From assembly GCA_009602735.1 (NCBI GenBank), contig WELA01002258.1, positions 140,746 to 204,745 of the forward strand: a DNA stretch of 64,000 bases. The letters are read 5' to 3'. The notes beneath the pieces were generated by a model that did no database searches, was not told where the DNA came from, and worked only from the letters and a program-made list of their open reading frames with translations. The position numbers were made by a program, and so were the translations under genes. Positions 2,437 through 59,491 of this stretch are shown here, in pieces. Numbering within the stretch: the first letter of the stretch is position 1; each line of letters opens with the position of its first letter. The stretch is from Mesotaenium endlicherianum (lineage: Eukaryota).

Positions 2437-2842
2437 CCAAACGCTCACATATAGCACACTTGTATGACCTTCTCAAAGTACTCCTTGCAAATGAAGGTAA
2501 TCTATGACTTTGCTTACCACTTGCAAAAATATTCAAGTGACTGGAAATCGACCAAGAAGACATCGGATTGCTTTGCATTGATAAGAGTGTGATCTACATG
2601 CATACGCTTGCTATAGTTTCTTATACTAATCACTTTAAATTAAGGGAGCTATGCAAAACGCAACTCATTGATTGATGTACCTATCCATATATATTCACCA
2701 ATCATGGAAATCTACATAAAACTGGTGGGTAAAACCATGTCTAACAAAAAGGAAAAGCTCATAGCTGATGACCTGTACATGTGAAAAGACTACTAGAAGT
2801 TCGGACTGGACGCTACTGGGCAGCTGTACAAATAATCACTCT

Positions 2843-3380
2843 TACATAAGCAAGGTTAGAAGACAGTGCGTATCAATGGCTTCTTGCCTTGGATTCAGAT
2901 CTCTCTCAGTAAGCTGTACAAGAGAGTTGGCCTCGTTTTTGAATGCCGAACTCGAGAGCAATGCCTAGCATATGTACATGGAATGAGTTTACTGTTCAAC
3001 GGCCAGTGCGATGGCACCGCCTACCCGAGAGTTAACCACGTTGGTAGGACCTCGGTTAACCAAATCCACCGCCATCTCCCATCATCCCGAATTGCCATCC
3101 ATCATAGGGATGTCATCTGGCCATTCATCTAGCCTATCACACTTAGATGCATATCGAGGCAGTTTGCTGCTACCGAGTACGGAAGTCAGCTGGCTGTCAA
3201 AGAATGTGTCAACAAGCTGACTTAAGTTGACTTCAGCCTGCTGCTTCCAGCTGAGTCATTAAACTGATATTATATATGAAATCCAGCAGACTGATCATTA
3301 ACTAAAGTTCAGCAGGTTAAACTTATTTAACTATTATATTTTAATTAATTTTATATCTAATAATATACTGATTCATTACA
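2843..3380 (-). repeat. 3' LTR of A1 (distal end missing)
   Basis: Ends ...GATTCATTACA at 3380, adjacent to the PPT (AAGTTGGAGGGGT on the minus strand). Homology stops near 2843. Confidence 0.88.
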
Positions 3381-3459
3381 ACCCCTCCAACTTCATTTGT
3401 TGTCGCCTCGACAACATTAAACTGCAGAAGTCTTAAATACTGACTGCCTCTTTAGCCTG

Positions 3460-5109
3460 TCACGTAGGGGGCCGTTCTGGGGCTCCAGGATCAGGAGACT
3501 GAGATCTGGACCTAGATCTGGACAGCCCTCTAGGTCTGTCAGTTGGCCTTTTAAAGAACCCCGTTTGCTCTACAGTTGGACCTCGAGGAGAACAAAGGAT
3601 GGTAGCCTGCTCTTCACCCACTTGGATGTTGATCCCCACATAGACAGGCATTCCAGTAGGATGCTGAAATACATTGGCAAGAGGTACATGTCCCTGAGCG
3701 AAGGGGGAGGCCGGCATACCTCTGACCCACCCGCGTGTCCCTCTTCTGGCACCCCTGTCCCCTGGGGATTTTTGTCTGTGTCTGCTGCCAAGTACAGCAG
3801 GTGGGCTGGGGGAGCGAATGCGGGGTCCAGTTGCCTCCATGACCGGGATCACGTTCCATATACCTGATCTAGGTTCCTTAGGAAGTGCCCCTGCCTGCTC
3901 CTGGGTCTCCTGAGTACCAGCTCCTGATGCTTCTCCTCTGCCTTGTTCTTCTTCCTCCTCCTCCTCATCCTCCTCCTTCAAAAGAGTTGCAGTCTCGTCC
4001 ACTAAGTCGTCCTGCTCCTTGGTAGACATGGAGTAGTCTACTGACCTCCCTTTCTTAGGGCGCGCTGGAGGTTGCTTGGCCTTTAGCCTGCTGATATCTA
4101 TTCGGCCTGCATTCTTCGCCCATTTGACGAAGGCATGCTTTCCCTTAGAGAAGCAGTCTCTCCCCCTCCTCCTGTGCTCTTTGGTCTCTGCATTCATATT
4201 GCTCAGGCAGCCATTCAGCCTGGGGTCCCAAGGGGCAATGTGAGGTGGTAGGATGAGGTAGCCGTCTAGGCCATAGTGGAAATCGTCTGGTTGGGCTCGG
4301 TCACACTCCTGCTTTTTGTTTGTGACGGTCATCCACCTCAAGTCTGTTGGCTGCTGGTAGTACTGGGGTCCATGCTCAGCCTTTCTCAGACATGGGAACC
4401 AGTGGGGAGACAACATCTGCTGTCCTGCTTCCTTGGCCAAGTACTCCCAGCTCCTTCTCTCAACTTCGTTGTAAGCTGGCAATAATGTGAGGTAAAATAC
4501 CGTATCCTTAAAGCTATCGGGCCGCATGCTCACCATCTTGATGAGTCTCTGATCTCCCACTATTCCCGGTATTGGGACTGGCTTGTTCTCTGAATCATCA
4601 GCAAGGTACCGAGCCTGCTCTGCTGTATAGCCCACCATCTTGGCATAATCCTCGTAGAGGACCACACCAGTGTGTGTCTCAATGTACCTATCCAGTGCTG
4701 CAGCTCCTTCCCTCTGTAGCAGTGTTGTCTGTTCTCGCTTGTTGATCTCCTGGGCTGCCAGCAATGCTTCCTTCAGGTTATCAAAGTTTTGGCCACCCAC
4801 CACAGTTTACCTGTAAGTGGCCAAGCTCTTCTGCCTGTCCGCTACAGCCTTTTTCCTTCTCTCCTCCTCTGCCGCTGCCGCTTCGTCTTGTTGTTTCTTC
4901 TGTCTCTCCTCCTCAGCCTTCCTGAGGTTTTTCGCTTCCTGATCTTTCTTCCTTTGTGCTTCTTCTGCCGCCTCTTGTTGTTTGCGGACCCTTTCTTGTT
5001 CTCTCTTGGTGAGGGACGTCGCCGCCAGCTCCTTGTAGTATTGCTCCATTGTCCTCCTGGCCTCTTCGGCCTTGCGCTTTCTGTCCTCCTTTTGTGTGGT
5101 GGGAGCCAT
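3460..5109 (-). pseudogene. ORF3 of A1: ~549-aa accessory protein of unknown function with one premature stop
   Basis: ORFs 4807-5133 and 3460-4803 are in one frame, split by TAA at 4807-4809 where the other copies have TAC (YRYTV). ATG at 5109. Charged coiled-coil-like N-terminus, conserved core, acidic tract, SP/RS-rich tail. Confidence 0.85.
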
Positions 5110-5499
5110 TCTGCACATACAACTAGGGCACAAGTTAGTAGGATATCGACCTTTGTCATAGGAGTTGTAGGAAGGGAGTAAGTTCGTATTAGTATGGTAT
5201 GTTCGTTCCTGTTTACCTCACAGGGTGATTGCTAGGAGTTGACGTAGTTGTGGTGCGCTAGACATAGACGTATGAATGTGTTTTCAGGTGTGTTATGTGA
5301 TGTATTGCTGTGCGAGGCCCCTGTTTCCTTCAGCCAAAGGTGCTTTATGTGGGTCAGGCTGTCCCCTCTGTCACTATGCTCACACTTAGGATTCACATAA
5401 CCGTCCCTTTCTCGCTCTCGCACACTAACTGTCATATACTTTCCCCTCCAACTTAAATGGAGACAGGACCTCCTGTCACCTGCCCTTGTCAACTGAAAT

Positions 5500-8400
5500 G
5501 TCTGTTAGGGAGGTGCTTCAGCCGCCCGAAGGTGGAATCGTTTCAACGCCCCTTTGGCATTAGTCAGATGGTCTTTAAATTCCCAAGTGTCCCCAGAGGC
5601 ATCGTAACCCTTCCATCGAATGAGGTACTTCATGACATATTTAGACGATCGACGAACCAAAGACGATCGACCCAGACAGGGCCAAGCTTTTTCTTGACCA
5701 CACCAGGGAGGTACAGGTGCTGAGAATGCAGTTTGACTATATCGCCCTTAGAAAATGTCAGCTCCCAACGGTGTTGATTGGCGTATTTTTGTTGGTTTTC
5801 TTGGGCTTTGTGCAGGGAATGTTGGACTTCTGACAGGGTGTCAGCAAACTCCTGAGTTAACTGGAGGGAAACGGGATTGTCAATCCCTTCAAAGTGAGTT
5901 AAAGACTCCCCTAGCACATCTAAAGGAGACTTAGGGACTCTACCCAGGCTGAGTTCAAAAGGAGTCTTGCCCGTTGATGCGTGCACCGCACTGTTGACCG
6001 CAAACTGAATTTGAGGCAACAAGTCATCCCAATTATCTTGTTTTTGGTTGATATATGCTCTCAGCACCTCTTGCAGAACTCGGTTAGTTCTTTCAGTCTA
6101 CCCATCATTCTGAGGGTGGTTAGCTGTGCTGAGCAGTTTTTTGACTCCCATTAACTCCATGTCATGATTTATTGAGTCGAGGTTGCCGCACGAACCCGAG
6201 CTACAAGCGTGTGAGCGATCAACCTCGAACGGGCACTTGCCTCTTTGCATTTGTGTGATTTAGTTTATTAAGTTGCTATGCTCGCATGCCTAGGGGATAG
6301 ATGCCACGTGACAAGTCAACACTTGTCACGTGCGCCAGACCTACTAGACGCACCAGAGGCACGGGTCGAATACCCGTCCAAAACTGGACGGTGGCACTTG
6401 ACTTGTTTTCATAGCCACTACAGGCCGCAGGGACCCAAGCGACAGCCCGAAGCAAAGGCGACAAGGGTCGAGGGGGGCCACGTGGAGCCACCGGAAGGTG
6501 GCGGGCTTCTGCGCTTGGCCCAGGCGCACCCGGCAGCCAGCCCGAGCACTTAATTGTGCTCGGCGCCAAGCGACGGGAGCCACCAAGGCCACGTGGCGCC
6601 ACCGGAAGGTGGCGGGCACCTTCAAGTGGCCCAGGGGCACTTAAATGCCCGTCACTCGGGCCCAGGCACTCTTAAGTGCCCGACACCCAAGTGGCGAGGC
6701 CACCAAGGGCACCCAGGGCCACCGACCGACAGCTGCAGCCCGTCGATTGGCCCATGCGCATTCGACCAAGATGTGCTCAGCCGACAGGAACCGTCACAGC
6801 CTGCAGGAGTACCACAGCTTAGCGGGAAACCGTCCGATTGCACAAACATAAGTGTGCAAGCTTGTCTTACAAGCTTAGCATGTGCTAAAGTGAGCTTGAC
6901 CTATCACAAGCATTTAGCATATTCTAGCATCTCGTTTTTGATTGGATTGAATAGTAACTAGCCTATTGGAGCGCTAGCACAATAGGTATATATGTGTGTA
7001 TGCAAAGGTAGATCTAAGATAAAGACTACATGCATTGCATCCGCGCCTAACCCGCCAGGTTTCCAGGAGTAAAAGTACTAGAGATGTCCCTAGAAGAGAC
7101 ATCTTTTAGAAGTCCATTATGCCAGGTGTAAGTAACAGAGATTATCAGTAAAGCTTACACTTTTATCTCTTGTGTTTTCAGGACCACTTAGTGACTCTCT
7201 TGTGAAGAGCAAGCCCTCCAGGCTTCCAGTCACTTGAAGAACTTCACAAGTGGTGAGCAAAGTCACAGCTTAAGCCCTTGCCATAGGACTACTCTGAAGA
7301 TCATGATGTGCTTCCAGTGATCTTTTGGGCCATACTTCATTAGTTGTTTTCCTACCAGATTACAGTCTTGAGGTGCTCACTCTGGATAGTACACTTCCCT
7401 TAATTATAACATTTGACGCTTGACTCCCTTTTATAAAGCCCCCTGTATTGTAAACTTCATTGCAGCAAAGCCTGCTTGCTTATTATGCATTGCTTGTGTC
7501 GATAGTACGCACCCGACCTCCAAGCGCACGACATCCATTAAAACTCTCCAGAACTTAGAGGTAAATTTTGAGTCTCTGTCTGAGATGATATTAGAAGGGA
7601 GCCCATGTTGGCATACTACATGGTTGTAGAACTGTCTCGCTGTTTCGAGTGCAGTTACTTTGACAGTTGTGGGGATAAAAATGACCATTTTTGTTAGTTT
7701 ATCCACGACTACCAGTATGGAATCATGCCCATTGGCGGTTCTTGGTAGTGTGACCACCCAGTCCATGGATATAGTTTCCCAGCGTCCAGCTGGGATGGGA
7801 AGTGGTTGCAAGAGACCTCTCGGTGGTGTGTGCCTAGACTTATTTCTTTGACACTGATCACGGGATTTCATATATTTCAAGACCTCCCGGGGCAACCCCT
7901 CCCAATGATAATGTTTTGCCAGTTTGCCAACAGTTTTGGCCTGCCCCAAATGCCCACCCAGTAAACTGTCACGCGCTTGACTCAGTAAGAGAGACCTTAT
8001 TTCCAAATAATTAGGAAGGACCAGCTTCAGCCTGCCTAAAGTGGTTTCAGTCACCCAGACCCCTCCCTTAAGCCGGTACCCGAGTGCAGTAGCACAACAC
8101 ACACCAGTAGTGGGGCTGGGCTCAAATGTTGGGTCCGAAAGGTAGGCTTTTCTAAGTTGTTCAAGGAAGGACTTTTTCACCTTTAGTGAAGTGAGTGTAC
8201 ACAAGACTTTATCTACAGCATGCTGACTAAAGTTCCTTTCTTGCAAGTCAAGTCTTCTAGAGAGTGCATCAGCAGGATTCAACTTCCCTGGTTTGTAGTC
8301 GATCTGGACTTGGAACTGCTCCAGCACCTGGCTCCAGCGGTTCTCCCTCCTCGACAGCTTGGACTTCTTCTGAAAGTGAGTCAGAGCTAGATGATCTGTA

Positions 8401-10480
8401 ATCACCTTGAAAACTTTACCATGTAAGTATGCTCTCCACTCTTTGAGCACATGAATGATAGCTAGTAGCTCTTTATCATGCACTGAGTAATTAATCTCAG
8501 CTGGATTAAATTTCATAGACTCGTACACCATTGGGTGCCACTCCCGCCGTACCTTACCATCCTTTGTGGTTTTGTCAGCAGGCTGCAACAAAATAGCACC
8601 CATGGCAAAGTCAGAGGCATCAGTGACCACCTGCACTGGTTTGCTGGGGTCATACACGGCTTGTACTGGGGCAGAACAAAGGGCATCTTTAAGGGTCTGG
8701 AAGGCAGCCTGCTGCTCTTCCCCCCACACATACTCGATGTCTTTCTTAGTAAGGTCAGTCAGTTTACTGGCCTTTGTGGAATAATTCTCAATAAATCTCC
8801 TATAGTAGTTAGCCAACCCGAGGAAGGATCTAACTTCAGAGACAGACTGTAGTACTGGCCAGTCCCTTATGGTCTGGACTTTCTTAAAATCCACACTGAT
8901 GCCTTCTTTACTGACAACGTGGGCTAAGAATTCAATACTTTCCTTAAAGAAATCACACTTGCTTATTATAGCATATAACTGATTTTTTCTCAAAATCTCC
9001 ATGACTGTCTTTAAGTGTTTAGCGTGTTGAGCTTCATCTCTAGAGAAAATTAAAATATCATCCAGGAAAACTTGCACAAATTTATCCAAATACGGCCTGA
9101 AAATGTCATTCGTAGCACCCATGATGGTCGCAGGAGCATTAGTCAGTCCAAATGGCATCACGTTGAACTCATAGTGTCCATAACGTGTGCGGAAGGCAGG
9201 CATGTGTTCATCCCCCTCAGCAATTCTAATTTGATGATAACCACTCTTGAGATCTATTTTACTTTAACACCCTAGCACCCGATAGGGTATCAAGCAAGTC
9301 CTTGATTCTTGGTAAAGCATACTTGTTCTTTACTGTAATCTTGTTCAGGGCTCTGTAATCCACACACATCCGCATACTGCCATCCTTTTTTTAAACAAAT
9401 AGGATGGGTGCGCCGTAAGGTGATTTACTGGGGGAAATATAACCATTTTCCTCAAGCTCTGCAATCTGTGTTTTCAACTCCTCGCTCTCCACATAAGACA
9501 AGCCGTAAGTGCGTTGCCATGGTGGCTAACTCCCAGGTAATAAATCAATCCTATGATCTACTTCCCTCTTAGGTGGTAGTCTCGGAGGCATATTAAAAAC
9601 TTCCGTGTACTGAGCAACAATCTTTGCAGCAGTAGGGTGCTCCGGAGGGCTTACCTTTTTCTCAACCACTTCTTCAGGTTGAGGAGGTACCTCTCTTAGC
9701 AGCAGACAGAACATTCTGTCTTCCTTCTGGTTCCAGCTTTTGACGAACTCCATTGCATTCAGCAACTTGCATCCTTCTGGAAGCCTCTTCTTTTCCTTCA
9801 TTTGCCATCCACACAGGACAAGAGGAAGAGCACTGGTGGGTGCCAAGTCAGTCTGCCCATCACTGGCTCCTCTCACTTTAACTGTACCTCTGCTCCAACA
9901 CACTTCAGCTTGATGTCTATTAAGCCAGGACCTGCCTAGCACGAGATCATAAAAGCCAGTGTTGAGTACCTCAAATGTAAGCGTTTCAGTTAGAACTGCA
10001 ATGCCAGAACCTAACTGGACCTCAATAGGCTTGGTTATAACTCCTCCCGGAATACTTGAGGCATCTCCAAGGAATATTTTTCTATTTGCTTGGGTGACAG
10101 TAGGCAGCCTTAGCCGCTTAACTAAGTCCTTATGGATAAAAGTATGTGACGCCCCTCCGTCAACAAATGCCCTCACCTTCCTACCTGCAATCATGCAATG
10201 CAGTAGGATAGGGGGGACTGTCTTTTCCTGACTTTCGCATTGTTCTCCTGACGTAGCGAAGAAATGTTGGACATCAGGTGGAACAAGAGCATCCAGAGTG
10301 TGCACTCTCTGGATGTCTATATTGCTGATGGTCTCCTTTATCTGGTTGTCAGGCATGCATAGTGAATCCAGTTCAGCAGGACCCATAATACCTGCTACGA
10401 GGGCAGCTAGTGACGACTCACTATCTCTAGCATCCTCACAGTCAATAGACTGGATTACTGACTGTTGCTGTCTTCTAAAG
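5500..10480 (-). pseudogene. pol: pol of A1 (PR, RT, RNase H, integrase, partial chromodomain), frameshifted and interrupted
   Basis: PR motif [45 protein letters not shown] and ISDRD; interrupted at 6160-7533; deletion near 5660. Confidence 0.92.
6160..7533. mobile_element. Putative solo LTR, family D (1374 bp), inserted in the A1 integrase
   Basis: TGTCATG...CACGACA termini; 4-bp TSD TCCA at 6156-6159 and 7534-7537; removing it restores the integrase sequence; no long ORF. Confidence 0.8.
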
Positions 10481-12880
10481 GCTGGTCTTTTCTATCGACC
10501 TTCGGAAGATGTTTGACTGGACACTGTTCTCTGTAGTGGCCCAATTGCTGACAATGGTAGCAAATGGATTTTGATGAGGCTGGTCTCGGCTTAGTCCTAC
10601 CGCCACCTCTTCCATGGCCACCTCGAGAGTAACCACCTCTCCCCCTAGATTGCATAGCATTATACTCATACTCGTACTCATCACCCTGATCATCCTCAGC
10701 CTGGTCTCCTCCAATTGCATTGTAGGAACCGTGGGGCTTTTTTACAATCTTAGACACCAAAGCTTTACTCTGGCGCTTGTGATTGAACTGTAACGATTTG
10801 AGCTTTTTAGGCGTATCTGGGACTTTTTCCCAATCACCTAAAATACGTTATACTATTTATCATAAGTTAATTGATAAAGAATTGCATCACATTGAATTAT
10901 TCGCCACACACGTGTGCGATGAATTCCCGGTCGATTGGCGAAACGACCGAGATCCTATTGCAAAAAGCGTCGTAACGTAATTCGACTAGTTCGCAAAAGT
11001 ACGACATAATTATTCATAAAGCTACTTTGAATAATTATGAGATGATAATTTAATTAATCATTGTTTGATTAAGTTATGTTGACTGTCATTATTACGAATA
11101 ATGGACAATCACAGGTTTCGGATTACGACTAGTCGTAATACGAAGAAACTAATACGAACAAACAGTCGTAATCATTAATACGAACAAACAGTCGTAAAGT
11201 CAAGCGAAACGAAATATGCGAAGTCGCTCTGCATCCGAGCGACTATCGTTTGAAACGTTCACACCTAACCGATTGGCCAAAGTAGCTTTTTAAACTACCG
11301 GTTCATGACCAAAGCATGTGTACGCGACTCCGTGATCAATCGCGACTTTTTCGGAAAGTCGCGAGAACGCGAAAACGCCCGTTTGGCGCGAAACGATTTT
11401 TCGGAACCCGTCGAAAAGTCTCCAAACGGCCAACTGCGCGTTTCGAGCATTCGGCCGAATGGTACACGTCCCTTCGACCGTTTTCGTTGAACATGAACCA
11501 GTGCCCTAGGTGGTGACTCGAAGCACTCCAGTGCCTCATGTTGTGCAGGTATTTATACCTGCAGAGTCATTGTGAGTGCAACTCTCACAAGCACACATTC
11601 TACGTTAGTTTTCACTTTCGCTCTTTCGAGTATTCGTCAATTTCCACAAGTATACAGGATTTCCTTCCACTTGAATTAAATATTCCTTGAATACCGAGGA
11701 AAGATCCTCTCGAAAAGCAGAAACGTCACATGAACTGCTGCTGATCCCAAGCATCAGCATCCTGGATCAAGTCAGCGAGTTTCTCATACTTCTTCTCAGC
11801 AAAATGACCAGAGACTTTGGATTTCAAGCCATACCTGAAGTATGCTATCCTATACCGTTCTGGCAAGTCTAACAGCTTCATCATGTTGTCTTGGAACTTT
11901 TGAGCAAACTCAGCATCTGAAGTGGTCTGCTTCAGTGTCAGGGAGATCATTGCATAGATAGCTTTCTCCTGCTAGTTGATGACATCAAACTTCTCATGCA
12001 ACTTCTCCACAAACTCTACCCACGTAGGGTCACCGAGTTGCTGAGTTTTACGCTCTCTTTTCTAGTATAACCACCAGTCTGCGGCACTGCCTTTCAGTAG
12101 CGCACCGGTGTGCCTGACCTTCTCGTAATCTTGCAGTTCTGGGTAGTTCTCCAGCCACTGCTCAACATCCGCGAGAAACTTGATCAGGTAATATTTTCTG
12201 TTTCCCTCAGAATCATAGTCCTGGGGAGGTTTTGGCTTGGGCTTACCTGGCCCTCTGCCACCACCACCAGTGGTTTGAGACCCCAGTTGGTCTCTGTCTC
12301 GCAGTAGAGACATTCTGATTCGTTTGTCCTCCTGTTGGGTCTGATACATGGTCGCCATTTGCGACTGCATTTGAACGAACAATGCTCCCAAGTCTACACT
12401 CTGGGGTAGTAGTCTAGCAAATGCAGCAGCAGCATTGGCATCTACTCGATGAGTAGTGTCCTCAACAGTCCCTCTCGCTCCTGCAACAGCAATTCCTGCC
12501 GCATTCAGCCGGTCACGTATTTGACCTAGGGGTACATTGAGTTGTACAGCAGGAGGTGGGTTCAGAACATTGGCCCTGGATGCCATAAGTTCCTCAACCG
12601 TACGCTCGTCAGCGGGCTGTCCTTCCCTCCTTTTTGTATCCTCAGCAGCCTTTGCTAATTGTTCAGCTTCTAATCTGGCTCTCTCCTCCTCAGCTTGCTG
12701 TGCTGCGACTGCGGCAATAGCAGCTGCCTCATCTGCAGCCTCTCTAGCTGCAGTATCTGCCACTGCTTCAGAATAGGTACGGGTTCCCGCTACATGGCTT
12801 TCCGCGTGGTTTTCCACATTCTCGTTATCCTGGTTCTCCATGTCTCGGGAGTTGCTAGTTTGAGACTTTGTCCTTACCAT
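10455..12880 (-). pseudogene. gag: gag of A1, interrupted by solo LTR E
   Basis: MVRTKSQ start; LKGSAADWW; CCHC knuckle CYHCQQLGHYREQC; in-frame stops near 12062 and 11972. Confidence 0.9.
10789..11730. mobile_element. Solo LTR, family E (942 bp, CpG-rich), inserted in A1 gag
   Basis: TGTAACG...CGTCACA termini; 5-bp TSD TGAAC at 10784-10788 and 11731-11735; gag resumes on both sides. Confidence 0.88.
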
Positions 12881-12901: not shown

Positions 12902-12913
12902 GCTCCGATACCA
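12902..12913 (-). promoter_or_regulatory. Primer-binding site (tRNA-iMet type) of A1
   Basis: TGGTATCGGAGC on the minus strand, 1 nt after the 5' LTR. Confidence 0.9.
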
Positions 12914-12914
12914 C

Positions 12915-13326
12915 TGAAATGAATCGACTTACTAAATAGGNTAAATAGGCGATTAACAATTAATATAGATCTTTATATCAGCAAGTAATCTTTATGGTAA
13001 TTTTCGTTAACTGGTTAAACGGCAAAGGACAACACACTAGCAGTGAATAATAGGGATGTCATCTGACCATTCATCGAGCATACCATACTTAGATGCATAT
13101 CGAGGCAGTTTGCTGCTACCGAGTACGGAAGTCAGCTGGCTGTCAAAGAATGTGTCAACTAGCTGACTTAAGTTGACTTCAGCCTGCTGCTTCCGGCTGA
13201 GTCATTAAACTGATATTATGTATGATTTCTAGCAGATTGATTATTTACTAAAGTTCAGCAGGCTGAACTTAATTAACTATTATATTTAAATGAATATTAA
13301 ATCTACTAATATACAGATTCATTACA
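12915..13326 (-). repeat. 5' LTR of A1 with an internal deletion of ~300 bp
   Basis: TGAAATGAATC...GATTCATTACA. The junction gtgaataata|gggatgtc near 13052 skips the LTR centre seen in other copies. Confidence 0.88.
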
Positions 13327-15938: not shown

Positions 15939-16185
15939 CGTGGGGGCGACAGAACCACGTGTGAAGGTGAGGGGAAGGCGCTGAATCAAGGCAGAACCTC
16001 ACAGCTGCTCAATAGCAGAACCTCGTGAGCGATAGGTCCAAGTGTTTGCTGTAGCCGTTTGTGAGCTAGGCCGTCCTCACCTACAACTCTAATCCGACTA
16101 ACCACTAACCTATCAGCACTTACCACCCCTGACCACTGTGACCAGACACACCCACACACAGAGGACCTGACAGCATCAAGCACGA

Positions 16186-16188
<3 letters not shown>

Positions 16189-16256
<68 letters not shown>

Positions 16257-16673: not shown

Positions 16674-16720
<47 letters not shown>

Positions 16721-16935
16721 AGGGGGGAGATGGAAGAGGAAAAGAGTGTGACGGGGATGTGAACACTCTTTTTTTTGATTTTTTTTGTGTGTTTTTGTAT
16801 ATAATGCGAGTTTGCAATTGAGTTGAGAATGCATGGTCACGAATAAGTTTTGTTTTCTACTTTACATATTGATATTTGTACCTTAACGTATAGTAAACTC
16901 CTATGTATACTATGATTGGCAAAAAAGTGATGTGT
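16189..16935 (-). repeat. (GA)n microsatellite spanning an assembly gap (N 16257-16673), plus the second copy of the microsatellite-associated repeat
   Basis: GA repeats flank both sides of the gap; 16715-16935 is an inverted homolog of 1-230. Confidence 0.8.
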
Positions 16936-29893: not shown

Positions 29894-30014
29894 TGATTCA
29901 TTACAATCCCTCCAACTTAAATTGTTGTCAACTCGACAATTCTTCTATTATTGTTTACAACAAAGTAACACACATACATCACAACCAACTGAATCTAAAA
30001 CAAAGACAACACCA

Positions 30015-31519
30015 AACTAAGTACCAGGGGCTCGGTCTTTTGGGGAGCGAGTCCTGGTACCGGATCTCCTTCTCCAGTCTGATGGTCTCTTGAAACCTGG
30101 GGGCTCAGATCAGGGTGAACCAAGGGGTGAACACAGCAACTGGACAGCCTACTCTTGCACTGTCTGCAAGTTGATGGAGACCGCTCTCTCTTGTGCAGCT
30201 CTCAAACTGACAGGGACATACACTGGCATACCGAAGGGGTGCTGCATGACATGGGCTAAGACTACATGCCCTCTATGAGAGGGGGATGCTCTGTCTGACT
30301 GAGTCTCACCTCCTGGGGTGAGACTCCTCCTGCTGAAACTCCCCAGCCACAAGAGATCTGGGTCTCTTGGTGGGCTGGTATCCCCAAGCTGCTGCAAGGC
30401 TGCCTGTGCAACAGCACTTCCAGTCTGCTGTAGAGTGGGGGATGTAGCGCGGGTCTATGCCTCAGCAGGAGTAGACTCCTCTTCAGCGCCTTCCTTCTCT
30501 TTGTCCTCCTGTTCCTCTGAGACTTCTAGAGTCTCTCTGGTCATCTCCTCCAGCCGTTCCCGAGAAAAAAAGTATCCCACTGACCTCCCCCTTTTGGGTG
30601 CAGGTGGGAGGATGCTGGGTCCAGACAGCATACAGGTCTTTCTCCCCTTGCTTACTTGCCCATTTGGCATAAGCATGCTTCCCCTTAGAGAAAGAACCTC
30701 TAGCCCTGATTCTATCCTCCTGTGTCTCCTGACTCATGCAGTCCCTGACTCCATCCAACCTTGGGTCCCATGCTGCAATATGAGGTGGCAGCACTATCTT
30801 CCCCTGCAAATCTGCCAGGAAATTATCTTCTGCAGCTCTGTCATTTTGCTGGTCCTTCATTGTGATGGTCATCCAGCGCCAGTCAGTGGGCTATAGAAAG
30901 AACGCAAGATTCGTCCTCTTTAAAGTGCAGGGATACCAATGACCTCAAAAACCCAACTGACTGGTCTTCCTTGCCAAGAACACCCAGCTTTTTCTCTCCA
31001 CCTCGTTATACATGGCCTTGAACCGGTTGTGGGAAGTGGTATCCTTGAAGCTGTCTGTATGCATAAGGATCAACCTGATGACCTTGTCTGTGCCCCAGAT
31101 CCCAGGTATTGGCACCATTTCAGATTCACCTATCTGGGCCAATGCTTTGGCCTCCCGGAGTGTATATCCCACCATCCTGGCATAGTCATGGTGTAGTAGA
31201 AGCCCTTGCCCATCACCGTGTAGCGGTAGCTTTTGATTCTCCTCTGTTCCTCCTCAGCCTGTTGCTTCCACCTCTCCTCAGCCAACCTTTGTTCCTCCGT
31301 CTTCTTGGCTTCCTCTGCAGCCTCTTTGTCCTGCTCCTCCTGTCTTAGCCTGGCCTGTTCTTCCTCCTCCTTCCTCTTTTGAGCCTCCCGGTGCAGTCGG
31401 AGTCGCTCTGATTCTCGAGAAGAGATGGAGGATGATTCGATGTCGTTATGGAACTCCTTGTACTCCGCCTGCGCCTCGTCCGCCCTTCTTTTCCTCTTGA
31501 GTTTAGACAATTTTGTCAT
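30015..31519 (-). pseudogene. ORF3 of A2 (fragmented)
   Basis: Pieces 31130-31528, 30945-31175, 30483-30872, 30455-30676 and 30149-30397 carry VGYT, DSFKD, YNEVERKS, LPPHIAAWDPRLDG, FSKGKHA and GHV..QHP..PVYV. Confidence 0.85.
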
Positions 31520-31949
31520 CCGGCTCATTCATACCACAATGAAGTTAGTGTAGTCACAATATCATGCACAGGATTGAGTACTTTGACAGGGAAGAACGTA
31601 GTAGAGGGAGTTAGAGCATGCAATACATGGTGTAAGTAAATTGAAAGTGCGAGCGTGCTTGAGAGGAAAGTGAGTGTGAGCGCAGTTGAGTGTGGAGGAT
31701 AAATATGCGAAGGAAATCGGCAATCGGCTAGTTTCTGAGATGTTTATCCCACTCCCTCCAACTTTATGCATAGGTGGGTTGCCTGTTTCAACTGTCACTG
31801 GGCTGCTTGTCACAACTGTCACTCCCTGTCAACTACTGTCACTTTCTGTCACTAACTGTCACTTTAGGCCACGTTTGGCCACATTTCCCCTCCAACTTCA
31901 ATGGAGACAGGACCTCCTGTCACCTTCCCTTATCAATCGAAATGACAGT

Positions 31950-50143: not shown

Positions 50144-51533
50144 TGTAATGAATCGGTATATTGGTAAATATAATATTTATTTAAATATAATAGTTTGTTT
50201 AGTACATTGGTAGACTTAACATTCGATTAAATATGATAGTTAGTTAAGTTCAGCCTACTGAACTTTAGTTGATATTCAGTCTGCTAAACTTTATCAGTTT
50301 AATGACTCAGTCGGGAGCAGCAGGCTGAAGTCAACTTAGGTCAGCAAGCTGATACATTCTTTGACAGCCAGCTGACTTCCATACTCGGAAGCAGCGAATT
50401 GCCTAGATATGCATTCAAGTGTGGTATGCTAGATGAATGGCCAGATGACATCCTTGGGATGGATGGCGATTCGGAATGATGGAAAATGGCGGTGGATTTG
50501 GTTAACCGAGTTCCTACCAACGTGGTTAACTCTCGGGTAGGCGGTGCCATTGCACTTGCCGTTGAACAGTAAACTCATTCCACGTACATATGCTAGGTAT
50601 TGCTCTCGAGTCCGGCATTCAAAAATGAGGCCAACTCTGTTGTACAGCTAACTGAGTCGACTTACCAAATAAGCGATTAATAAATAATAAAGATCTTTAT
50701 ATCAGCAAGTAATCTTTATGGTATTTTCTGTTAATTGATTAAACAGCAAGGGACAACACACGAGCAGTGGGCAATACTCGGAAGTCAAATGCAAGTAAAT
50801 TAGCATCAATAATGCAATCAGGAAACTCATACTTAAGCAAGGCTAGAAGACAGTGCATATCAATGGCTTCTGGCCTTGGATCCAGATATCTCTCAGTAAG
50901 CAGTACAAGAGAGTTGGCCTTGTTTCCGAATGCCAAACTTGAGAGCAATCCTTGCATATGTATAATGAGTTTACTGTTCAACGGCAAGTGCGATGGCACC
51001 GCCTACCCGGGAGTTAACCACGTTGGTAGGACCTCAATTAACCAAATCTACCGCCATCTCCCATCATCCCGAATCGCCATCCATCCAAAGGATGTCATCT
51101 GGCCATTCGTCTAGCTTACCACACTTATGTGCGTAACTAGGCAGTTTGCTGCTACCGCGTACGGAAGTCAGCTGGCTGTCAAAGAAAGTGTCAGCAAGCT
51201 GACTTAAGTTGACTTCAGCCTGCTGCTCCCGGCTGAGTCATTAAACTGATTATTTAATAAAGTCCAAAAGACTCAATATTAACAAAAGTTCAGCAGTCTG
51301 AACTTATTTAACTATTATATTTGAATGAATATTATATCTACCAATATGCTGATTCATTACAATCTCTCCAACTTAACAGGTTGTCGTCTCGACAACACTA
51401 ACACTGGGTACACGGTTTTCCCTAACTGAAAGTACTGATCTCTCTCCCACCGCCTCTTGCTCCAACGTTGATACTCAACGGTGGGGATCACTAGTAACAG
51501 CGTGCAGTGTCTTTTGCCCTCAGCCTACTGCCA

Positions 51534-53176
51534 TTAGGAGGGAGATGTCCCTGGGGCCCTAGGGTCAGGGGAGTGTGACCTCCTCCTGTCTTGGGGTCTC
51601 CTGAAGCCTGGGGGATCCGTGTAGAGATCCCGCGGAGAACGCAATAACTGTGCTGTTTCCTGCTGTACAGTCTGAAACTGAATGGAGGCAGCCTTCTCTT
51701 GGGCAGCCCTCAAACTGACAGGTACATATACCGGAATCCCAGATTGATGTTGCATGACATGAGCTATAGGCACATGCCCTCTCTGCGAGGGAGATGCTGG
51801 CAGGCCTCTGGCTATTTCTCTAGCAGCCCTCCTGTCTGCCCTGTCTGACTGGGTCTCCGAGCCTGGAGATGGGCACTGTCCTCTGGCAATTTCCAGCCAA
51901 GTGGAATCTTCCTCTCCAGCGAGCTGATGCTGGGCCAACCCAGTCTTCTCCCTTAGAGGGGATGTGGCAAGCGTCAGGATCACAGCGGGGCTAGTGTCCT
52001 CCTCCTCGCCTTCGATCCCTCCTCCTCTCCGTCCCCTAGTTCCTCTGAGACTGCTAGGGTCTCTTCTGTCAGCTGCTCCAGCTCTTCCCGAGAAAAAGAA
52101 TATCCCACTGACCTTCCCCTTTTGGGTGCTAGTGGGGGCTGTTGAGTCCGGACCCCATACAGGTCCTTTTCTCCCTGCTTGCTTGCCCAGTTGGCATAAG
52201 CGTGCTTTCCTTTAGAGAATGACTCTCAGGCCCTGCTCCTGTTCTCCTGCATTTCCTGGCTCATGCAGTCTCTTACTCCATCCAGTCTTGGGTTCCAAGC
52301 TGCAATGTGAGGAGGCAACACTATGTTCCCCTGTAGGTCTGTTAGGAAGTGTTCCTCCCTTGCCTTGTCATTTTGCTGGTCCCTCATGTTGATGGTCATC
52401 CATCGCCAATTGGTGGGCTTCTGGAAGAAGGCAGGGTCTCTCCTTTTGAGAGTACAAGGGTACCACTGCCCTGCAAATTCCAGCTGACCAATTTCCCTCG
52501 CCAAAAATCCCTTGCTCCTTCTCTCCACCTCATTATACATGGCCTTGAACCTGTTGTGGGATGTGGAGTCCTTAAAGCTGTCCGCGTCCATGGGGATCAT
52601 CCTAATGACCCTATCTTTCCCCCAGATACCTGAAATTGTTACAGCTCCTGCTTTGTTCACCTGGGCCATTGCCTTGGCCTCTCTGACCGTATATCCTACC
52701 AACCTGGCATAATCGTGATAGAGGAGGAGTCCTGTGCTGACCTCTATATACTTGTCAAAGTTTTCAGATGTTTCCCCTTCCCTCTGCAGGAATTCCTTTT
52801 GCGACTCACTGCGACTTCTCTGGGCATATTTGAAGGCCTCTTCCAGCAGATCATAGCCCTCGCCCAACACTGTGTAGCGGTAGCTGCTGATTCTCCTCTG
52901 TTCTTCTTCTTCAGCCTGCTGCTTCTGTCTCTCCTCGGCTTGCCTCTCCTCTTCCGCCTTTTTGACCTCCTTTGCAACTTTTTTGTCCAATTCTTCCTGC
53001 CTCATCCTGGCCTGTTCCTCCTCTTCCTTCTTCTTTTGTGCCTCCCGTTGTTGTTGAAGTCGTTGTGATTCCAAAGCGGAGATGGAGGATGATTCGATGT
53101 CGCCACAGAATTGCAAGTATTTTGCATGTGCCTCTTCCGCTCTTCTCTTCCTCTTAAGTTCCGACTTCTTGGTCAT
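51534..53176 (-). pseudogene. ORF3 of A4 (one stop, one frameshift)
   Basis: ATG at 53176; open to TGA at 52226; continues in frame (ESFSKGKHAY..PKRGRSV); frameshift near 52040; C-terminal part 51534-51983. Confidence 0.87.
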
Positions 53177-53549
53177 CCTGCTCAATCATAAACACAATGC
53201 ATTCAGTAAAGTCATGATACTTTGCCGCTACTGAGTGCCCGTGGTGAAGAAGAACGTGATAGGGAGAGTCCCTAGTGCGTAGTACCTTGTGTGAGTGAGT
53301 ATAAGAGAGAATTGAGTTAGAAAGAAAAAGTGAGTATGAGCGCAGGTTGAATGTGCAGAATGGTTATAAAATTTGCCTGGCTGATCTCGAAACGGAACAC
53401 ACTCCCTCCAACTTAATTTTAAAGGTGGGCTGCCTGTCACAATTGTCACTTCCGGTCACTAGCTGTCACATTCCCCTCCAACTTATATGAAGACAAGACA
53501 TCCTGTCACCTGTCCGTGTCCACTGAAATGACAGTTAGGGAGGGGTGCC

Positions 53550-56500
53550 AGCTGCCCGAAGGTGGAACCATTTCAACGCCCCTTTGGCATTGGTCAACTG
53601 GTCTTTAAATTTCCAAGTGTCCCCGGAGGCATCGTAACCCTTCCATCTGACCAGGTACTACATGACATATTTAGATGATCGACGGACAGAGCAAGCGTCT
53701 AAAATCTCCTTGACCTCATATTCCTCAAGGTCACCATCCCGAACAGCGGGGACCGGTCTCGATTGGACAGGTGACCAGCCTGTGAACAGTGTGTCACCTT
53801 TAATGTACGGTTCAAAGAAGGAGACATTAAAGACTAGGTGACCCTTGTATTCTGCTGACATGTTCAGTTTGTAAGCATTCTGACCGACACGGCGCACCAC
53901 CAAATCTGGAGCGACCCAGACAGGACCAAGCTTTTTCTTGACCACACCAGGTAGGTACAGGTGCTGAGAGTGCAGTTTGACCAAATCGCCCTTAGAAAAT
54001 GTCAGCTCTCGACGGTGCTGATTAGCGTATTTTTGTTGGTTTGCTTGGGCTTTGTGCAGGTTCTGTTGGACTTCTGACAGGGTGTCAACAAACTCCTGGG
54101 TTAACTGGAGGGAGACCGGATTGTCAATCCCTTCAGGGTGAGTTAAAGACTCCCCTAGTACATCTAAAGGAGACTTAGGGACTCTACCCAGGCTCAGTTC
54201 AGAAGGAGTCTTGCCCGTTGACGCGTGCACCGCACTGTTGACCGCAAACTGGATTTGAGGCAACAAGTCATCCCTATTGTCTTGGTTTTTGTTAATATAT
54301 GCTCTCAGCACCTCTTGCAGAACTCGGTCAGTTCTTTCAGTCTCCCCATCAATCTGAGGGTGGTTTGCTGTGCTGAGCAGCTGTTTGACTCCTATTAACC
54401 CCATTGAAGCTCTCTAGAACTTAGAGGTAAATTTTCAGTCTCTGTTCGAGATGATATTAGAGGGTAGCCCATGTTGGCATACTACATGGTTGTAGAACCG
54501 TCTCGCTGTTACGAGTGCACTTACTTTGACAGTTGTCGGGATGAAAATGACCATTTTTTGTTAGTTTATCCACGACTACCAGTATCGAATCATGCCCATT
54601 GGCAGTTCGTGACAGTGTTACCACCCAGTCCATGGATATTGTTTCCCAGCGTGCAGCTGACATGGGCAGCGGTTGTAAGAGATCCCCCGGTGGTGTGTGT
54701 CTAGACTTGTTTCTTTGACACTGATCACAGGACTTAACATATTTCAAGACCTCCCGAGGTAACCCCTCCCAATGATAATGTTTTGCCAGTTTGCCAACAG
54801 TTTTGGCCTGCCCCAAATGCCCACCCCGTAAACTGTCATGTGCTTGACTCAGTAAAAGGGACCTTATTTCCAAGTTATTAGAAATGACTAGCTTTAGCCT
54901 GCCTGAAGTGGTTTCAGTCACCCAGACCCCTCTTTTAAGCCTATACCCAAGTGCAGTAGCAGGACACACACCATCAATGGGGCTGGGCCCAAATGTTGGG
55001 TCAGAAAGGTAGGCTTTCCTAAGTTGTTCAAGCAAGGCCTTTTTCACCTTTAATGCAGTGAGTGCACAAAGGACTTTATCTACAGCATGCTGACCAAAGT
55101 TCCTTTCTTGCAAGTCGAGTCTTCTAGAGAGTGCATCAGCAGAATTCAACTTTCCTGGTTTGTAGTCAATCTGGACTTGAAACTGCACCAGTGAAATGAA
55201 TCGACTTACCAAATAGGCGATTAATAATTAATAAAGATCTTTATATTAGCAAGTAATCTTTATGGTATTTCTCGTTAACTGGTTTAACGGCAAAGGACAA
55301 CACAATAGCAGTGAATAATACTCGTCAGTCAAATGCGAGTAAACTAGCATCAATAATGCAAATCGGTAAACTTATACATAAGCAAGGTTAGAAGACAGTG
55401 CGTATCAATGGCTTCTCGCCTTGGATTCAGAGTTCTCTCAGTAAGCTGTACAAGAGAGTTGGCTTCGTTTCCGAATGCCGAACTCGAGAGCAATGCCTAG
55501 CGTATGTACATGGAATGAGTTTACTGTTCAACGGTCAGTGCGATGGCACCGCCTACCCGGGAGTTAACCACGTTGGTAGGACCTCGGTTAACCAAATCCA
55601 CCGCCATCTCCCATCATCCCGAATCGCCATCCATCATAGGGATGTCATCTGGCCATTCATCTAGCATATCACACTTAGATGCATATCGAGGCAGTTCGCT
55701 GCTACCGAGTACGGAAGTCAGCTGGCTCTCAAAGAATGTGTCAGCAAGCTGACTTAAGGTGACCTCAGCCTGCTACTTCCGGCCTGAGTCAGTGAATTGA
55801 TATTAAGTATAAAGTCCAGCAGACTGATTGTTAACTAGAGTTCAGCAGGTTGAACTTATTTAACTATATTATTTAAATGAATATTATGTCAACCAGTGTA
55901 CTGATTCATTACATCCAGCATCTGGCTCCAACGGTTCTCCCTCCTTGACAGTTTGGACTTCTTCTGAAAGTGAGTCAAATCTGTAATCACCTTAAAGGCT
56001 TTACCATGTAAGTATGCTCTCCAATGCTTGAGCACATGAATGATAGCTAGCAGCTCTTTATCATGCACAGAGTAATTAGTCTCAGCTGGATTAGATTTCA
56101 TAGACTCATACAATACAAGATGCCACTCCTGCTTTACTTTACCATCTTTGTGGTTTTGTCAGCAGGTTGCAACAACATAGCACTCATGGCAAAGTCAGAA
56201 GCATCAGTAACCACCTGCACAGGTTTGCTGGGGTCATACACGGCTTGCACTGGGGCAGAACAAAGAGCATCTTTAAGGGTCTGGAAGGCAGCCTGCTGCT
56301 CTTCCCCCCACACATACCCTATGTCTTTCTTAATAAGGTCAGTCAGTTTATCGGCTTTTGTAGAATAATTCTCAGTAAATCTCCTATAGTAGTTAGTTAG
56401 CCAACCCAAGGATGGATCTAACTTCGGAGACAGATTGTGGTACAAGCCAGTCCTTTATGGTCCGGACTTTCTTAGGATCCATACTGATGCCTTCTTTGCT

Positions 56501-58057
56501 GACAACATGGCCTAGAAATTCAATACTTTCCTTGAAGAAATCACACTTGCTCATTGTAGCATACAACTGGTTTCTCCTCAGAGTGTCCATGACTGTCTTT
56601 AAGTGTCCAGCATGCTGAACTTCATCTTTAGAGAAAATTAAAATATCATCGAGGAAGACTTGCAAAACCTTATCCAGGTAAGGTCTGAAAATGTCATTCA
56701 TAGCACCCATGAAGGTTGCAGGAGCATGAGTCAGTCCAAATGGCATCACGTTGAACTCATAGTGTCTATAACGTGTGCGGAAGGCAGTCTTGTGTTCATC
56801 CTCCTCAGCAATCCTGATTTGATGATAACTACTCTTGAGATCTATCTTACTGAACACTTTAGCACCAGACAGGGTATCAAGCAAGTCCTCGATTCTGGGT
56901 AAAGCATACTTGTTCTTTATTGTAAATTTGTTAAGAGCTCCGTAATCAACGCACATCTGCATACTCTCATCCTTTTTCTTAACAAAGAGGATGGGTGCGC
57001 CATTAGGTGATTTACGAGGGAAAATGTACCCATTCTCCTCAAGCTCTGCAATCTGTGTTTTCAACTCTTCGCTCTCCACATAAGACAAGCCATAAGTGCG
57101 TTGCCAGGGTGGCTGACTCCCAGGTAATAAGTCAATCCTGTGATCCACTTCCCTCTTAGGAGGTAGTCCTGAAGGCATGTTAAAAACATCAGTGTACTGA
57201 GCAACAATTTTTGCAGCAGTAGGGTGCTCCGGAAAACTTACCATTTTCTCAACCACTTCTTCATGTTGAGGAGGTACCTCTCTTAGCAACAAACAGAACA
57301 TTCTGTTTTCCTTCTGGTTCCAGCTTTCGATGAACTCTATTGCATTCGGCAATTTGCATCCTGCTGGAAGCCTCTTCTTTTCCTTCATTTGCCATCCATA
57401 CAGGACAAGGGGAAGAGCACTGGTGGGTGCCAAGTTAGTCTGCCCATCACTGGCTCCTCTCACTTCAACTGTACCTCTGCTCCAACACACTTCAGCTTAA
57501 TGTCTATTAAGCCAGGACCTGCCTAGCACGAGATCATAAAAACCAGTGTTGAGTACCTCAAATATAAGCGTTTCAGTTAGAACTGCAATGAACTGGACCT
57601 CAATAGGCTTGCTTATAATTCCTCTCGGGATACTTGAGGCATCTCCAAGGAATATTTTTCTATTCCCTTGGGTGACAGTAGGCAGCCTTAGCCGCTTAAT
57701 TAAGGCCTTATGGATGAAAGTATGTGACGCCCCTCCGCCAACAAATGCCCTCACCTTCCTACCTGCAATCATGCAATGCAGTTGGATAGGGGGGACTGTC
57801 TTTTCCTGACTTTCGCATTGTTCTCCTGACTTAGCGAAGAAATGTTGGACATCAGGTGGAACAAGATCATCCAGAGTGTGCACTCTACGGAGATCTATAT
57901 TGCTGATGGTCTCCTTTATCTGGTTGTCAGACATGCATAGTGAATGCAGTTCAACAGGACCCATAATACCTGCTATGAGGGCAGCTAGTGACGACTCACA
58001 ATCTCTAGCATCCTCACAGTCAGTAGACTGGATTACTGACTGTTGCTGTCTTTTAAA
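53550..58057 (-). pseudogene. pol: pol of A4
   Basis: PR, RT (FLDDILIFS), RH, IN and chromodomain (EEYEVKEIL..*YLVRWKGY) in broken ORFs. Confidence 0.92.
55192..55913 (-). mobile_element. Solo LTR, family A, inside A4 RNase H
   Basis: TGAAATGAATC...GATTCATTACA termini; TSD ACCAG/TCCAG (one mismatch). Confidence 0.92.
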
Positions 58058-59491
58058 GGCTGGTCTTTTCTCTCGACCTTTGGGAGGTGCTTCACTAGGC
58101 ACTGCTCTCTGAAGTGACCCGTCTGCTGGCAATGGAAGCAAACAGATTTTGCTGAGGTTAGTCTCGGCTTACTCCTACCACCACCTCTTCCATAGCCACC
58201 TTGCGAGGAACCACCTCTCCCTCTAGACTGCATAGCATTATATTCTTACCCGTATTCATCACCCTGATCATCCTCAACCTGGTCTTCCTCAATTGCATTG
58301 TAGGAACCGTGGGGCTTTTTGACAACCTTAGACACCAAAGCATTACTCTGGCGCTTGTGATTGATTTGCTGCTGATCCCAGGCATCAGCATCTTGGATCA
58401 AGTCAGCGAATTTCTCATACTTCTTTTCAGCAAAAATAACCAGAGTCTTCGGATTTTAAGCCATACCTGAAGTATGCTATCCTATACCGCTCTGGCAAGT
58501 CTGCTTGCTTCATCATGTTCTTCTGAAGCTTTTGAGCAAAGTCAGCAACTGAAGTGGTCTGCTTCAGTGTCAAGGAGATCATGGCATAGATAGCTTTCTC
58601 CTGCTGATTGATCACATTAAACTTCTCATGCAGTTTCTCGACAAAATTTACCCAAGTAGGGTCACCGAGTTGTTGAGCCTTACGCTTCCCTTTCCAGTAC
58701 AACCACCAGTCTACTGCACTGCCTTTCAGTAGAGCACCAGTGTGCTTGACATTCTCGTGATCTTGCAGTTCTGGGTAATTCTCCAGCCATTGCTCAACAT
58801 CAGCAAAAAACTTGATCAGATAACACTTTTTGTTCCCCTCAGGATCATAATCCTGGGGAGGTTTTGGTTTGGGCTTACTAGGCCCTCTGCCACCACCACC
58901 AGTGGTTCGAGAACCCAGTTGGTCTCTATCTTGTAGCAGAGGCATTATGATTCTTCTGTCCTCCTCTTGGGACTGATACATGCTCGCCATTTGCGATTGC
59001 ATTTGCACGAACAATGCTCCCAAATCCACACTCTGAGGTGGGAGTCTAGCATATGCAGCAGTAGCAGTGGCATCCCCTCGTCGAGTAGTGTCCTCAACAG
59101 TCCCTCTCGCCGCATTCAGACGGTCACGAATTTGACCTAGGGGCACATTGAGTTGTACAACAGGAGGTGGGTTCAGAATATTGGCCCTTGATGCCGTATG
59201 TTCTTCGACAGTGCACTCGTCCGCTGGCTGTCCTTCCCTCCTTTCTGTATCTTTAGCAACCTTTGCTAATTGTTCAACTTCTAATGTGGCTCTCTCCTCC
59301 TCAGCCTGTTCTGCTGCGACTACGACAATAGCAGCTGCCTCATCTGCAGCCTCTCTAGCTGCAGTATCTGCCACTGCTTCAGAATAGGTACGGGTTCTCG
59401 CTACATGGCTTTCAGCCTGGTTTTTAACATTCTTGGTATCCTGGTTCTCCATGTTTTGGGAGTCGCTAGTTTGAGACCTCGTCCTTACCAC
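58033..59491 (-). pseudogene. gag: gag of A4
   Basis: 354-aa ORF with a GTG start, frameshift near 58430, then CFHCQQTGHFREQC. Confidence 0.9.

What the first reader, a model, noticed from the sequence alone, without database searches (positions are those of the whole stretch)
3460..5109. Chromovirus family A carries an uncharacterised ~550-aa third ORF in the env position
Seen: all three family A copies that retain a 3' region (3460-5109, about 30015-31519, 51534-53176) have a sense ORF between the chromodomain and the PPT. Shared motifs include VGYT, DSFKD, YNEVER[RK]S, PT..RWMT, LPPHIA.W[DN]PRL.G, FSKGKHA, PK[KR]GRSV and GHV..A.V.QH..G.PVYV. It has an E/K/R/Q coiled-coil-like N-terminus, basic NLS-like patches, an acidic tract and an SP/RS tail, with no signal peptide or transmembrane helix. 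Known: chromoviruses normally encode only gag-pol, and extra ORFs are better known from Athila/Tat/Ogre and errantiviruses. Inference: a soluble, probably nuclear accessory factor, for example anti-silencing, RNA processing or targeting. I do not recognise the family.
Basis: partly seen in the sequence, partly recalled or inferred. Interest (0 to 1): 0.88.

Follow-up and report, generated by a model that had tools for sequence, protein, structure and literature searches.

The report
Swappable orphan gene in a chromovirus
A family of jumping genes carries an extra gene with no known relatives that was kept by selection; its three copies here are far older than the rest of the element, so it was likely swapped between lineages as a cassette, and it is predicted to make a soluble, probably nuclear helper protein.

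Summary
The third ORF is real. It lies in sense between chromodomain and 3' LTR in 3 of 3 family A copies that keep a 3' end, though every copy is broken (stops, frameshifts). It evolved under strong purifying selection (omega about 0.14 in all three pairs, p<1e-27) and has no relative in any protein or profile library searched; structure models failed. It is not an envelope protein (no hydrophobic segment). So old ORF3 alleles were likely exchanged between lineages as a PPT-bounded cassette. Function and expression are not shown; a nuclear anti-silencing or regulatory role is my best guess (about 40%). Extra 3' ORFs (Tekay, 18%) and a second PPT (Bongo3) are already in print for chromoviruses, and this scan noted other, apparently unrelated accessory ORFs in this position in two other genomes. 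Verdict: new variant of a known kind.

The parts
3460..5109 (-). ORF3, copy 1 (allele type I), 549 codons, one in-frame stop at 4807-4809; possible start 9 nt further up at 5118
3381..3411 (-). Copy 1 terminal hairpin (TGTTGTCG-loop-CGACAACA) and PPT (motif 3383-3393); 3' border of the cassette
   Evidence: (z -3.9)
5110..5443 (-). Copy 1 non-coding spacer of the cassette; about 35-47% identical to copies 2 and 3; would hold a promoter or splice acceptor (untested)
5444..5454 (-). Copy 1 internal PPT copy, about 50 nt after the pol stop; 5' border of the cassette
5505..10491 (-). Copy 1 pol (PR-RT-RH-IN-chromodomain), broken, with a 1.38-kb insertion at 6156-7535
10455..12880 (-). Copy 1 gag with CCHC knuckle, overlapping the PR frame; 947-bp insertion at 10784-11730
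12902..12913 (-). Copy 1 primer binding site TGGTATCGGAGC (initiator tRNA-Met type; label recalled)
12915..13326 (-). Copy 1 5' LTR, internally deleted; GTAAGT donor-like hexamer at 12927-12932
2838..3380 (-). Copy 1 3' LTR, U5 end missing
30017..31528 (-). ORF3, copy 2 (allele type II), five stops and two frameshifting gaps
29908..29918 (-). Copy 2 terminal PPT; the 3' LTR is cut off after about 12 nt
31754..31898 (-). Copy 2 two internal PPT copies (31888-31898 and 31754-31764)
51534..53176 (-). ORF3, copy 3 (allele type II, dS 1.26 from copy 2), stop at 52226-52228 and one frameshift near 52000
51364..51374 (-). Copy 3 terminal PPT, preceded by the same hairpin
53404..53484 (-). Copy 3 two internal PPT copies (53474-53484 and 53404-53414)
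50650..60243 (-). Copy 3 whole element: LTRs 50650-51361 and 59526-60243 (93.4% identical), solo LTR inserted at 55192-55913, CTCAG on both flanks

Best explanation
ORF3 is a selected accessory gene of a chromodomain-bearing Ty3/Gypsy retrotransposon; it lies between copies of the polypurine tract, was likely exchanged between lineages as a cassette by template switching during reverse transcription, and likely encodes a soluble nuclear protein that would help the element against host silencing. Step 1 (shown, about 0.97): a protein-coding gene under purifying selection in the active lineages; the three copies here decayed after insertion. Step 2 (pattern shown, mechanism inferred, about 0.8): ORF3 alleles are much older than the shared LTR-gag-pol backbone, and the PPT copies are the last shared sequence on either side, so co-packaged RNAs of different lineages would recombine there. 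Step 3 (inferred, about 0.75): the protein is soluble and nuclear: a charged N-terminal helix, a conserved core of about 260 residues, a PK[KR]GR basic motif, an acidic tract, a short conserved C-terminal motif and a basic S/P tail. Step 4 (inferred, about 0.4): it acts in trans on element DNA, chromatin or RNA to keep the family expressed, and several old alleles persist because host silencing favours the rarer one. How it is expressed (internal promoter or splicing from the U5 donor-like site) is not shown.
For: Omega 0.140, 0.140, 0.138 for the three pairs over 455, 381 and 406 codons, likelihood-ratio p 1e-34, 2e-28, 5e-41; also low in N-terminus, core and C-terminus separately. Model-free: second positions differ 0.14-0.33, fourfold sites 0.53-0.71, p<1e-9. 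ORF3 dS 3.35, 3.38, 1.26 against pol dS 0.20, 0.30, 0.24, gag/PR 0.14 and LTR distances 0.07-0.125. Fourfold sites differ 62/87, 49/71, 62/116 in ORF3 against 49/275, 51/200, 39/181 in pol; transversions alone give the same result (p<=1e-7), so methyl-C deamination does not explain it. DNA identity of copy 1 to the others falls from about 0.8 to about 0.45 at the internal PPT and returns to 0.84-0.88 at the terminal hairpin-PPT. All 8 of 8 AAGTTGGAGRG matches in 64 kb lie at these borders; 0.15 expected. Copy 3-like ORF3 DNA is covered in all 11 ORF3 bins in a DNA run of organism A and of organism C, where pieces of 491 and 297 nt align without gaps at about 90%. Stop counts fit decay since insertion: 1 seen against about 3.0 and 1.8 expected. 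No hydrophobic segment. Nuclear location was shown for the Grande accessory protein (PMC7264820) and predicted for Tekay and Athila ones (PMC11728184). Recombination between co-packaged RNAs is described in PMC6894440.
Against: Only three copies, all broken; no genome was held, so no tree of many copies and no intact copy were seen. dS near 3.4 is saturated and only a lower-bound type figure. The 5' border is sharp for copy 1 but soft for copy 2 versus copy 3 (0.78-0.82 before, 0.53-0.88 inside). No homologue or usable fold supports any function. RNA gives little: copy 1-type ORF3 had zero depth in 2 of 4 runs, a trace in one and 0-3x on both strands in the fourth; copy 3-type had patchy sense reads over 52448-52909 only in one run and none over its 3' half, and no RNA joint was among the rows shown; only 6-13% of each run was read. 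The acceptor-like CAG before the ATG may be just an Arg codon: all three copies read x-[CS]-R-M there and copy 2 has CGG.
Confidence: 0.5

Rival explanations
1. Origin variant: the cassette is the remnant of a long U3. ORF3 once lay inside the LTR of an ancestor or donor, the internal PPTs mark former LTR starts, and the repeat boundary moved past the gene. Compatible with steps 1, 3 and 4 above.
For: 7 of 8 PPT copies are followed within 1-3 nt by TG, the usual LTR start; copies 2 and 3 hold two internal PPTs in series, as successive boundary shifts would leave. An unchecked note on another genome describes such a shift (e1-7509054).
Against: All family A 5' and solo LTR starts examined begin TGTAATG, the sequence after the terminal PPT; the spacers match nothing else in the window. 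The internal PPT of copy 1 is not followed closely by TG.
Confidence: 0.3
2. ORF3 is a particle-associated or movement protein (chaperone for the particle, nuclear import of the integration complex, or cell-to-cell spread) rather than an anti-silencing factor.
For: Env position; long charged helix and basic motifs; such roles were proposed for plant sense ORFs and for accessory proteins (PMC7264820).
Against: Alleles only 45% alike work with Gag and Pol that are 81-88% alike, which fits a host-facing protein better than a tight Gag or integrase partner. No movement-protein family hit.
Confidence: 0.25
3. The cassette is partly selfish or a copy-control factor: it spreads among family A backbones for its own benefit or restricts elements that carry other alleles.
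For: Own history, sharp borders, three different alleles in three copies.
Against: No cassette outside family A in the window; no enzyme or toxin match.
Confidence: 0.1
4. No exchange took place; the stretch between the PPTs simply mutates faster.
For: Copy 2 versus copy 3 border is soft.
Against: It would need a 5-17-fold higher rate, transversions included, with abrupt edges, while the LTR on one side and the chromodomain on the other stay at backbone level.
Confidence: 0.1
5. ORF3 is an envelope (membrane fusion) gene or a recently captured host gene.
For: Position and orientation only.
Against: No signal peptide or transmembrane stretch, 0-1 N-glycosylation sequons, 3-5 Cys; no homologue in 1.84 billion representatives; alleles diverged to silent-site saturation.
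Confidence: 0.04

Closest known systems
Sense additional ORFs between pol and 3' LTR (aORF-3S / eORF-3'F) of plant LTR retrotransposons: SIRE, Athila, Bagy2, Tat (PMC7264820, main text read; PMC6317226, passages, one section part, supplements 4 and 5)
   Same: Position, orientation, length over 250 codons, present in all copies seen, no known domain.
   Different: No transmembrane stretch; none of the listed eORF domains (PF03078, PF04195, PF10536, PF04094) matched; exchange of old alleles at PPT borders was not described in what I read.
Tekay chromoviruses with extra ORFs (PMC6317226 supplement 5: 33% 5'F, 18% 3'F; PMC11728184, abstract and passages: 402-aa 5' aORF, predicted nuclear)
   Same: Chromovirus with an orphan extra ORF that is partly disordered and has basic motifs.
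   Different: Tekay is limited to seed plants, whose chromoviruses lack the aromatic cage; family A keeps Y-W-Y and has overlapping gag and pol frames. The characterised Tekay ORF is 5' of gag. Tekay 3' eORF sequences could not be compared (supplements 1 and 3 too large to read).
Bongo3 chromovirus of Beta vulgaris (PMC3605345, passages)
   Same: Additional PPT just after the chromodomain.
   Different: No extra ORF is mentioned in the passages read ('additional ORF' 0 occurrences); here the PPT copies bracket a selected gene.
Bdelloid rotifer LTR elements with modular ORF3s (PMC5408684, abstract and passages)
   Same: ORF3 behaves as a module with a history apart from pol.
   Different: Those are recognisable enzymes or env genes shared across element types; here one orphan family is exchanged within one backbone.
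VANDAL/VANC anti-silencing proteins (one sentence in bioRxiv 10.64898/2026.05.21.726589; otherwise recalled)
   Same: Functional analogy only: an element-encoded factor that counters silencing.
   Different: DNA transposon proteins; no sequence match; activity untested here.

Membership tests
Chromovirus (Ty3/Gypsy) | PR-RT-RH-IN order with a C-terminal chromodomain | tested here: met
   Pfam hits in order; PF00385 E 1.2e-7
Chromovirus (Ty3/Gypsy) | LTRs, PBS, PPT, short target duplication | tested here: met
   CTCAG flanks copy 3, whose 3' LTR lacks its last bases
Chromovirus (Ty3/Gypsy) | RT placement in a named clade | tested here: inconclusive
   Best RT-RH identity 56%; quick tree of 56 of 122 rows leaves family A on a long unresolved branch; no reference set on hand
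Tcn1 clade | Self-priming, no tRNA PBS (83%) | tested here: not met
   tRNA-Met-type PBS one base after the LTR (label recalled). Cage and overlapping gag/pol do fit
Chlamyvir clade | gag and pol separated by a single stop (80%); no eORF | tested here: not met
   Overlapping frames in 4 of 4 copies; not grouped with Haematococcus rows (weak)
Tekay clade | Seed-plant clade whose chromodomain lacks the aromatic cage | tested here: not met
   Y, W, Y of the cage present in copy 3 and partly in copies 1 and 2
aORF-3S / eORF-3'F class | [quoted passage not shown] | tested here: met
   3 of 3 copies with a 3' end; genome-wide share unknown
aORF-3S / eORF-3'F class | Conserved by selection | tested here: met
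   omega 0.14
env / env-like | Signal peptide and transmembrane anchor | tested here: not met
   Hydropathy scan only, maximum 19-residue mean 0.63-1.07
env / env-like | Spliced subgenomic mRNA | tested here: inconclusive
   GTAAGT in 7 family A LTR ends; acceptor unclear; no RNA joint among rows shown
Known eORF domains (PMD, Transposase_28, Athila ORF-1, DUF390) | Pfam match | tested here: not met
Element-encoded anti-silencing factors (VANC-like) | Sequence-specific loss of silencing of own family | not testable with these tools
   needs expression and methylome data

The most novel reading that the evidence does not exclude
ORF3 is the founding member of a new family of retrotransposon counter-silencing proteins, carried on a PPT-bounded cassette whose ancient alleles are shuffled among young backbones and kept by frequency-dependent selection: an interchangeable accessory locus, like an allele system, inside an LTR retrotransposon.
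Probability: 0.25. Interest if true: 0.85.

Novelty: new variant of a known kind. Interest (0 to 1): 0.57.

Why it matters
The function of extra ORFs in plant LTR retrotransposons is an open question (PMC7264820). Here selection is measured, the protein family is new, and backbone and accessory gene have visibly different ages with defined borders. That gives a natural experiment: same gag-pol-LTR, different ORF3 alleles, so allele can be related to copy number, age, methylation and small RNAs. Such mosaics would also mislead dating and family definitions based on RT or LTR alone.

Tried and rejected
Homology, all blank for ORF3: Pfam, NCBIfam, PHROGs, PDB sequences (34; one E 0.67 row), 5.8-billion word search with the 448-aa piece, lengths 246-784 and with alignment A6, lengths 112-363, profile search of 1.84 billion representatives, viral and metagenome contigs, earlier notes by sequence. 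The host's repeats seem absent from these sets (pol best hits under about 55%), so the blanks do not show that relatives are lacking in kin species. The Atlas gave no answer. AlphaFold models had pLDDT 41 and 38; the Foldseek run on the second had no hit at E<=0.001 and is uninformative. No RNA holder listed. Summed contig depth over copy 3-type ORF3 was about 0.32 (X1) and 0.23 (X8) of pol bins by my arithmetic; the tool says this is no copy number, so it is only a hint that other alleles or ORF3-less copies exist. Splice acceptor at the ATG: downgraded (see best explanation). A hairpin before the internal PPT is not better than shuffles (z -0.1 to -1.5); the terminal one is in 2 of 3 copies. 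A deaminase reading of E...W[FY]PC (recalled motif) was dropped: no His, no second Cys. An adenine-methyltransferase reading has no support in Pfam. The N-terminal copy 1-copy 3 dS fit diverged and was ignored. The bacterial promoter scan (78) does not apply. Seven paper searches listed no description of this ORF or of allele exchange at duplicated PPTs; most subscription papers are not in the library.

Full report
Setting. The window is a nest of LTR retrotransposons around a host gene region at about 17-28.6 kb. No genome was held. Family A has 720-bp LTRs starting TGTAATG, a PBS TGGTAT[CT]GGAG[CT] (tRNA-Met type, label recalled), gag overlapping the protease frame in 4 of 4 copies, and PR-RT-RH-IN-chromodomain. 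The chromodomain keeps the Y-W-Y cage (residues defined in PMC3350952, passages), which in plants is limited to algae, mosses and club-mosses (PMC6317226). The best pol relatives are unnamed environmental proteins at 56% over RT-RH; a quick tree did not place the family. The host is therefore likely a non-seed green organism (inference). DNA runs of several coded organisms hold parts of the element.

Observation. ORF3 lies in sense about 400 nt after the pol stop and 80 nt before the 3' LTR in copy 1, and at the same place in copies 2 and 3. These are all three family A copies in the window with a 3' end. All named motifs are present. Each copy is broken at different places: one stop in copy 1; one stop and a frameshift in copy 3; five stops and two frameshifting gaps in copy 2. 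LTR pairs differ by 0.07-0.09; neutral decay over half that distance predicts about 3.0 and 1.8 stops where 1 and 1 are seen, so the breaks fit ordinary ageing after insertion.

Selection. Pairwise codon models give omega 0.14 for all three pairs with p below 1e-27 against neutrality; core and C-terminal parts give 0.09-0.18. Second positions differ far less than fourfold sites. Pol gives 0.26-0.43, higher because a larger share of its small divergence is post-insertion decay (inference). With three sequences internal branches cannot be separated, but decay can only push omega up.

Different histories. ORF3 dS is 3.35, 3.38 (saturated) and 1.26; pol dS for the same pairs is 0.20, 0.30 and 0.24; LTRs differ by 0.07-0.125. 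Fourfold differences and transversions confirm this without a model. In a sliding alignment copy 1 drops from about 0.8 to about 0.45 identity at 5450 and returns to 0.84-0.88 at 3411. Both borders carry AAGTTGGAGRG, the family's PPT; the window has 8 such matches, all at these borders, against 0.15 by chance. Copies 2 and 3 have two internal copies. The simplest reading is that old ORF3 alleles were moved between lineages by template switches between co-packaged RNAs, a process reviewed in PMC6894440 (passages), with the PPT copies as the shared landing sequence. That mechanism is inferred. An alternative origin, a former long U3 whose boundary moved, fits the TG after 7 of 8 PPT copies and was prompted partly by an unchecked note; I found no element with ORF3 in its LTR here.

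Spread and expression. Copy 3-like ORF3 DNA is covered end to end in a DNA run of organism A and in one of organism C, with gap-free pieces about 90% identical in the latter. RNA evidence is weak: copy 1-type was absent or nearly so in three polyA runs and at 0-3x on both strands in a fourth; copy 3-type had sense reads on one 460-nt stretch in one run, five starting at one place, and none on the 3' half. A donor-like GTAAGT is kept in 7 LTR ends, but the candidate acceptor before the ATG may be an Arg codon. Expression route is open.

Protein. Residues 1-100 are charged and helix-like; 101-360 are a conserved core with 30% hydrophobic residues; then an acidic tract, a variable linker, a short conserved GHV...QH..G.PVYV block and a basic S/P tail. 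There is no membrane segment. No library gave a relative and models were unusable. A nuclear, host-facing role is inferred from composition, from alleles of 45% identity working with near-identical Gag and Pol, and from analogy with Grande gene23 and Tekay ORFs. I put anti-silencing or transcription support at about 0.4, particle or movement roles at 0.25.

Comparison and novelty. It meets the tests of the aORF-3S class and fails those of env. Extra 3' sense ORFs are known in 18% of Tekay chromoviruses but in none of the other six chromovirus groups tabulated; a second PPT after the chromodomain is known from Bongo3; modular ORF3s are known from rotifers. New here are the orphan family, its place in a cage-bearing chromovirus, and the PPT-bounded exchange of old alleles, which seven paper searches did not list. 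Two large supplements of PMC6317226 with the eORF sequences could not be read. Earlier notes of this scan report other accessory ORFs in this position in two other genomes, with no sequence match to this one. Verdict: real, new variant of a known kind, interest 0.57.

Noticed in passing
window 39220-45900 (-): Family B chromovirus with 504-bp LTRs 99.8% identical, open gag (44080-45369) and pol (40493-44185): a very recent insertion. It also has a G-rich PPT-like run just after the pol stop and about 770 nt of spacer without a long ORF.
   Followed up: partly
window 23951-26103 (+) and 19319-19687 (+): Host gene pieces: a P/Q-rich repeat exon and an exon with a weak LITAF-like zinc-ribbon match (E 0.021, below cut-off); a similar P/Q exon end lies at 19319-19687.
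   Followed up: partly
window 33927-47483: A third Gypsy family with 750-bp LTRs splits copy 2; it holds an inverted LTR of its own family (35997-36746) and the family B element.
   Followed up: no
window 50201-50656, 60243-63138 (+): Copy 3 inserted into the 5' LTR of another family A copy; family A LTRs recur as insertion targets (also solo LTR 55192-55913).
   Followed up: partly
window 6156-7535 and 10784-11730: Two insertions in copy 1 with TG...CA-like ends and no other copy in the window; 7048-7401 has the highest RNA depth of the stretch.
   Followed up: no
window 8422-8582: A GT..AG joint skipping 159 nt in 3 reads of run X22 on the strand opposite to pol.
   Followed up: no
window 15986-16950: Low-complexity tract with a 417-base run of N (16257-16673), an assembly gap.
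   Followed up: no
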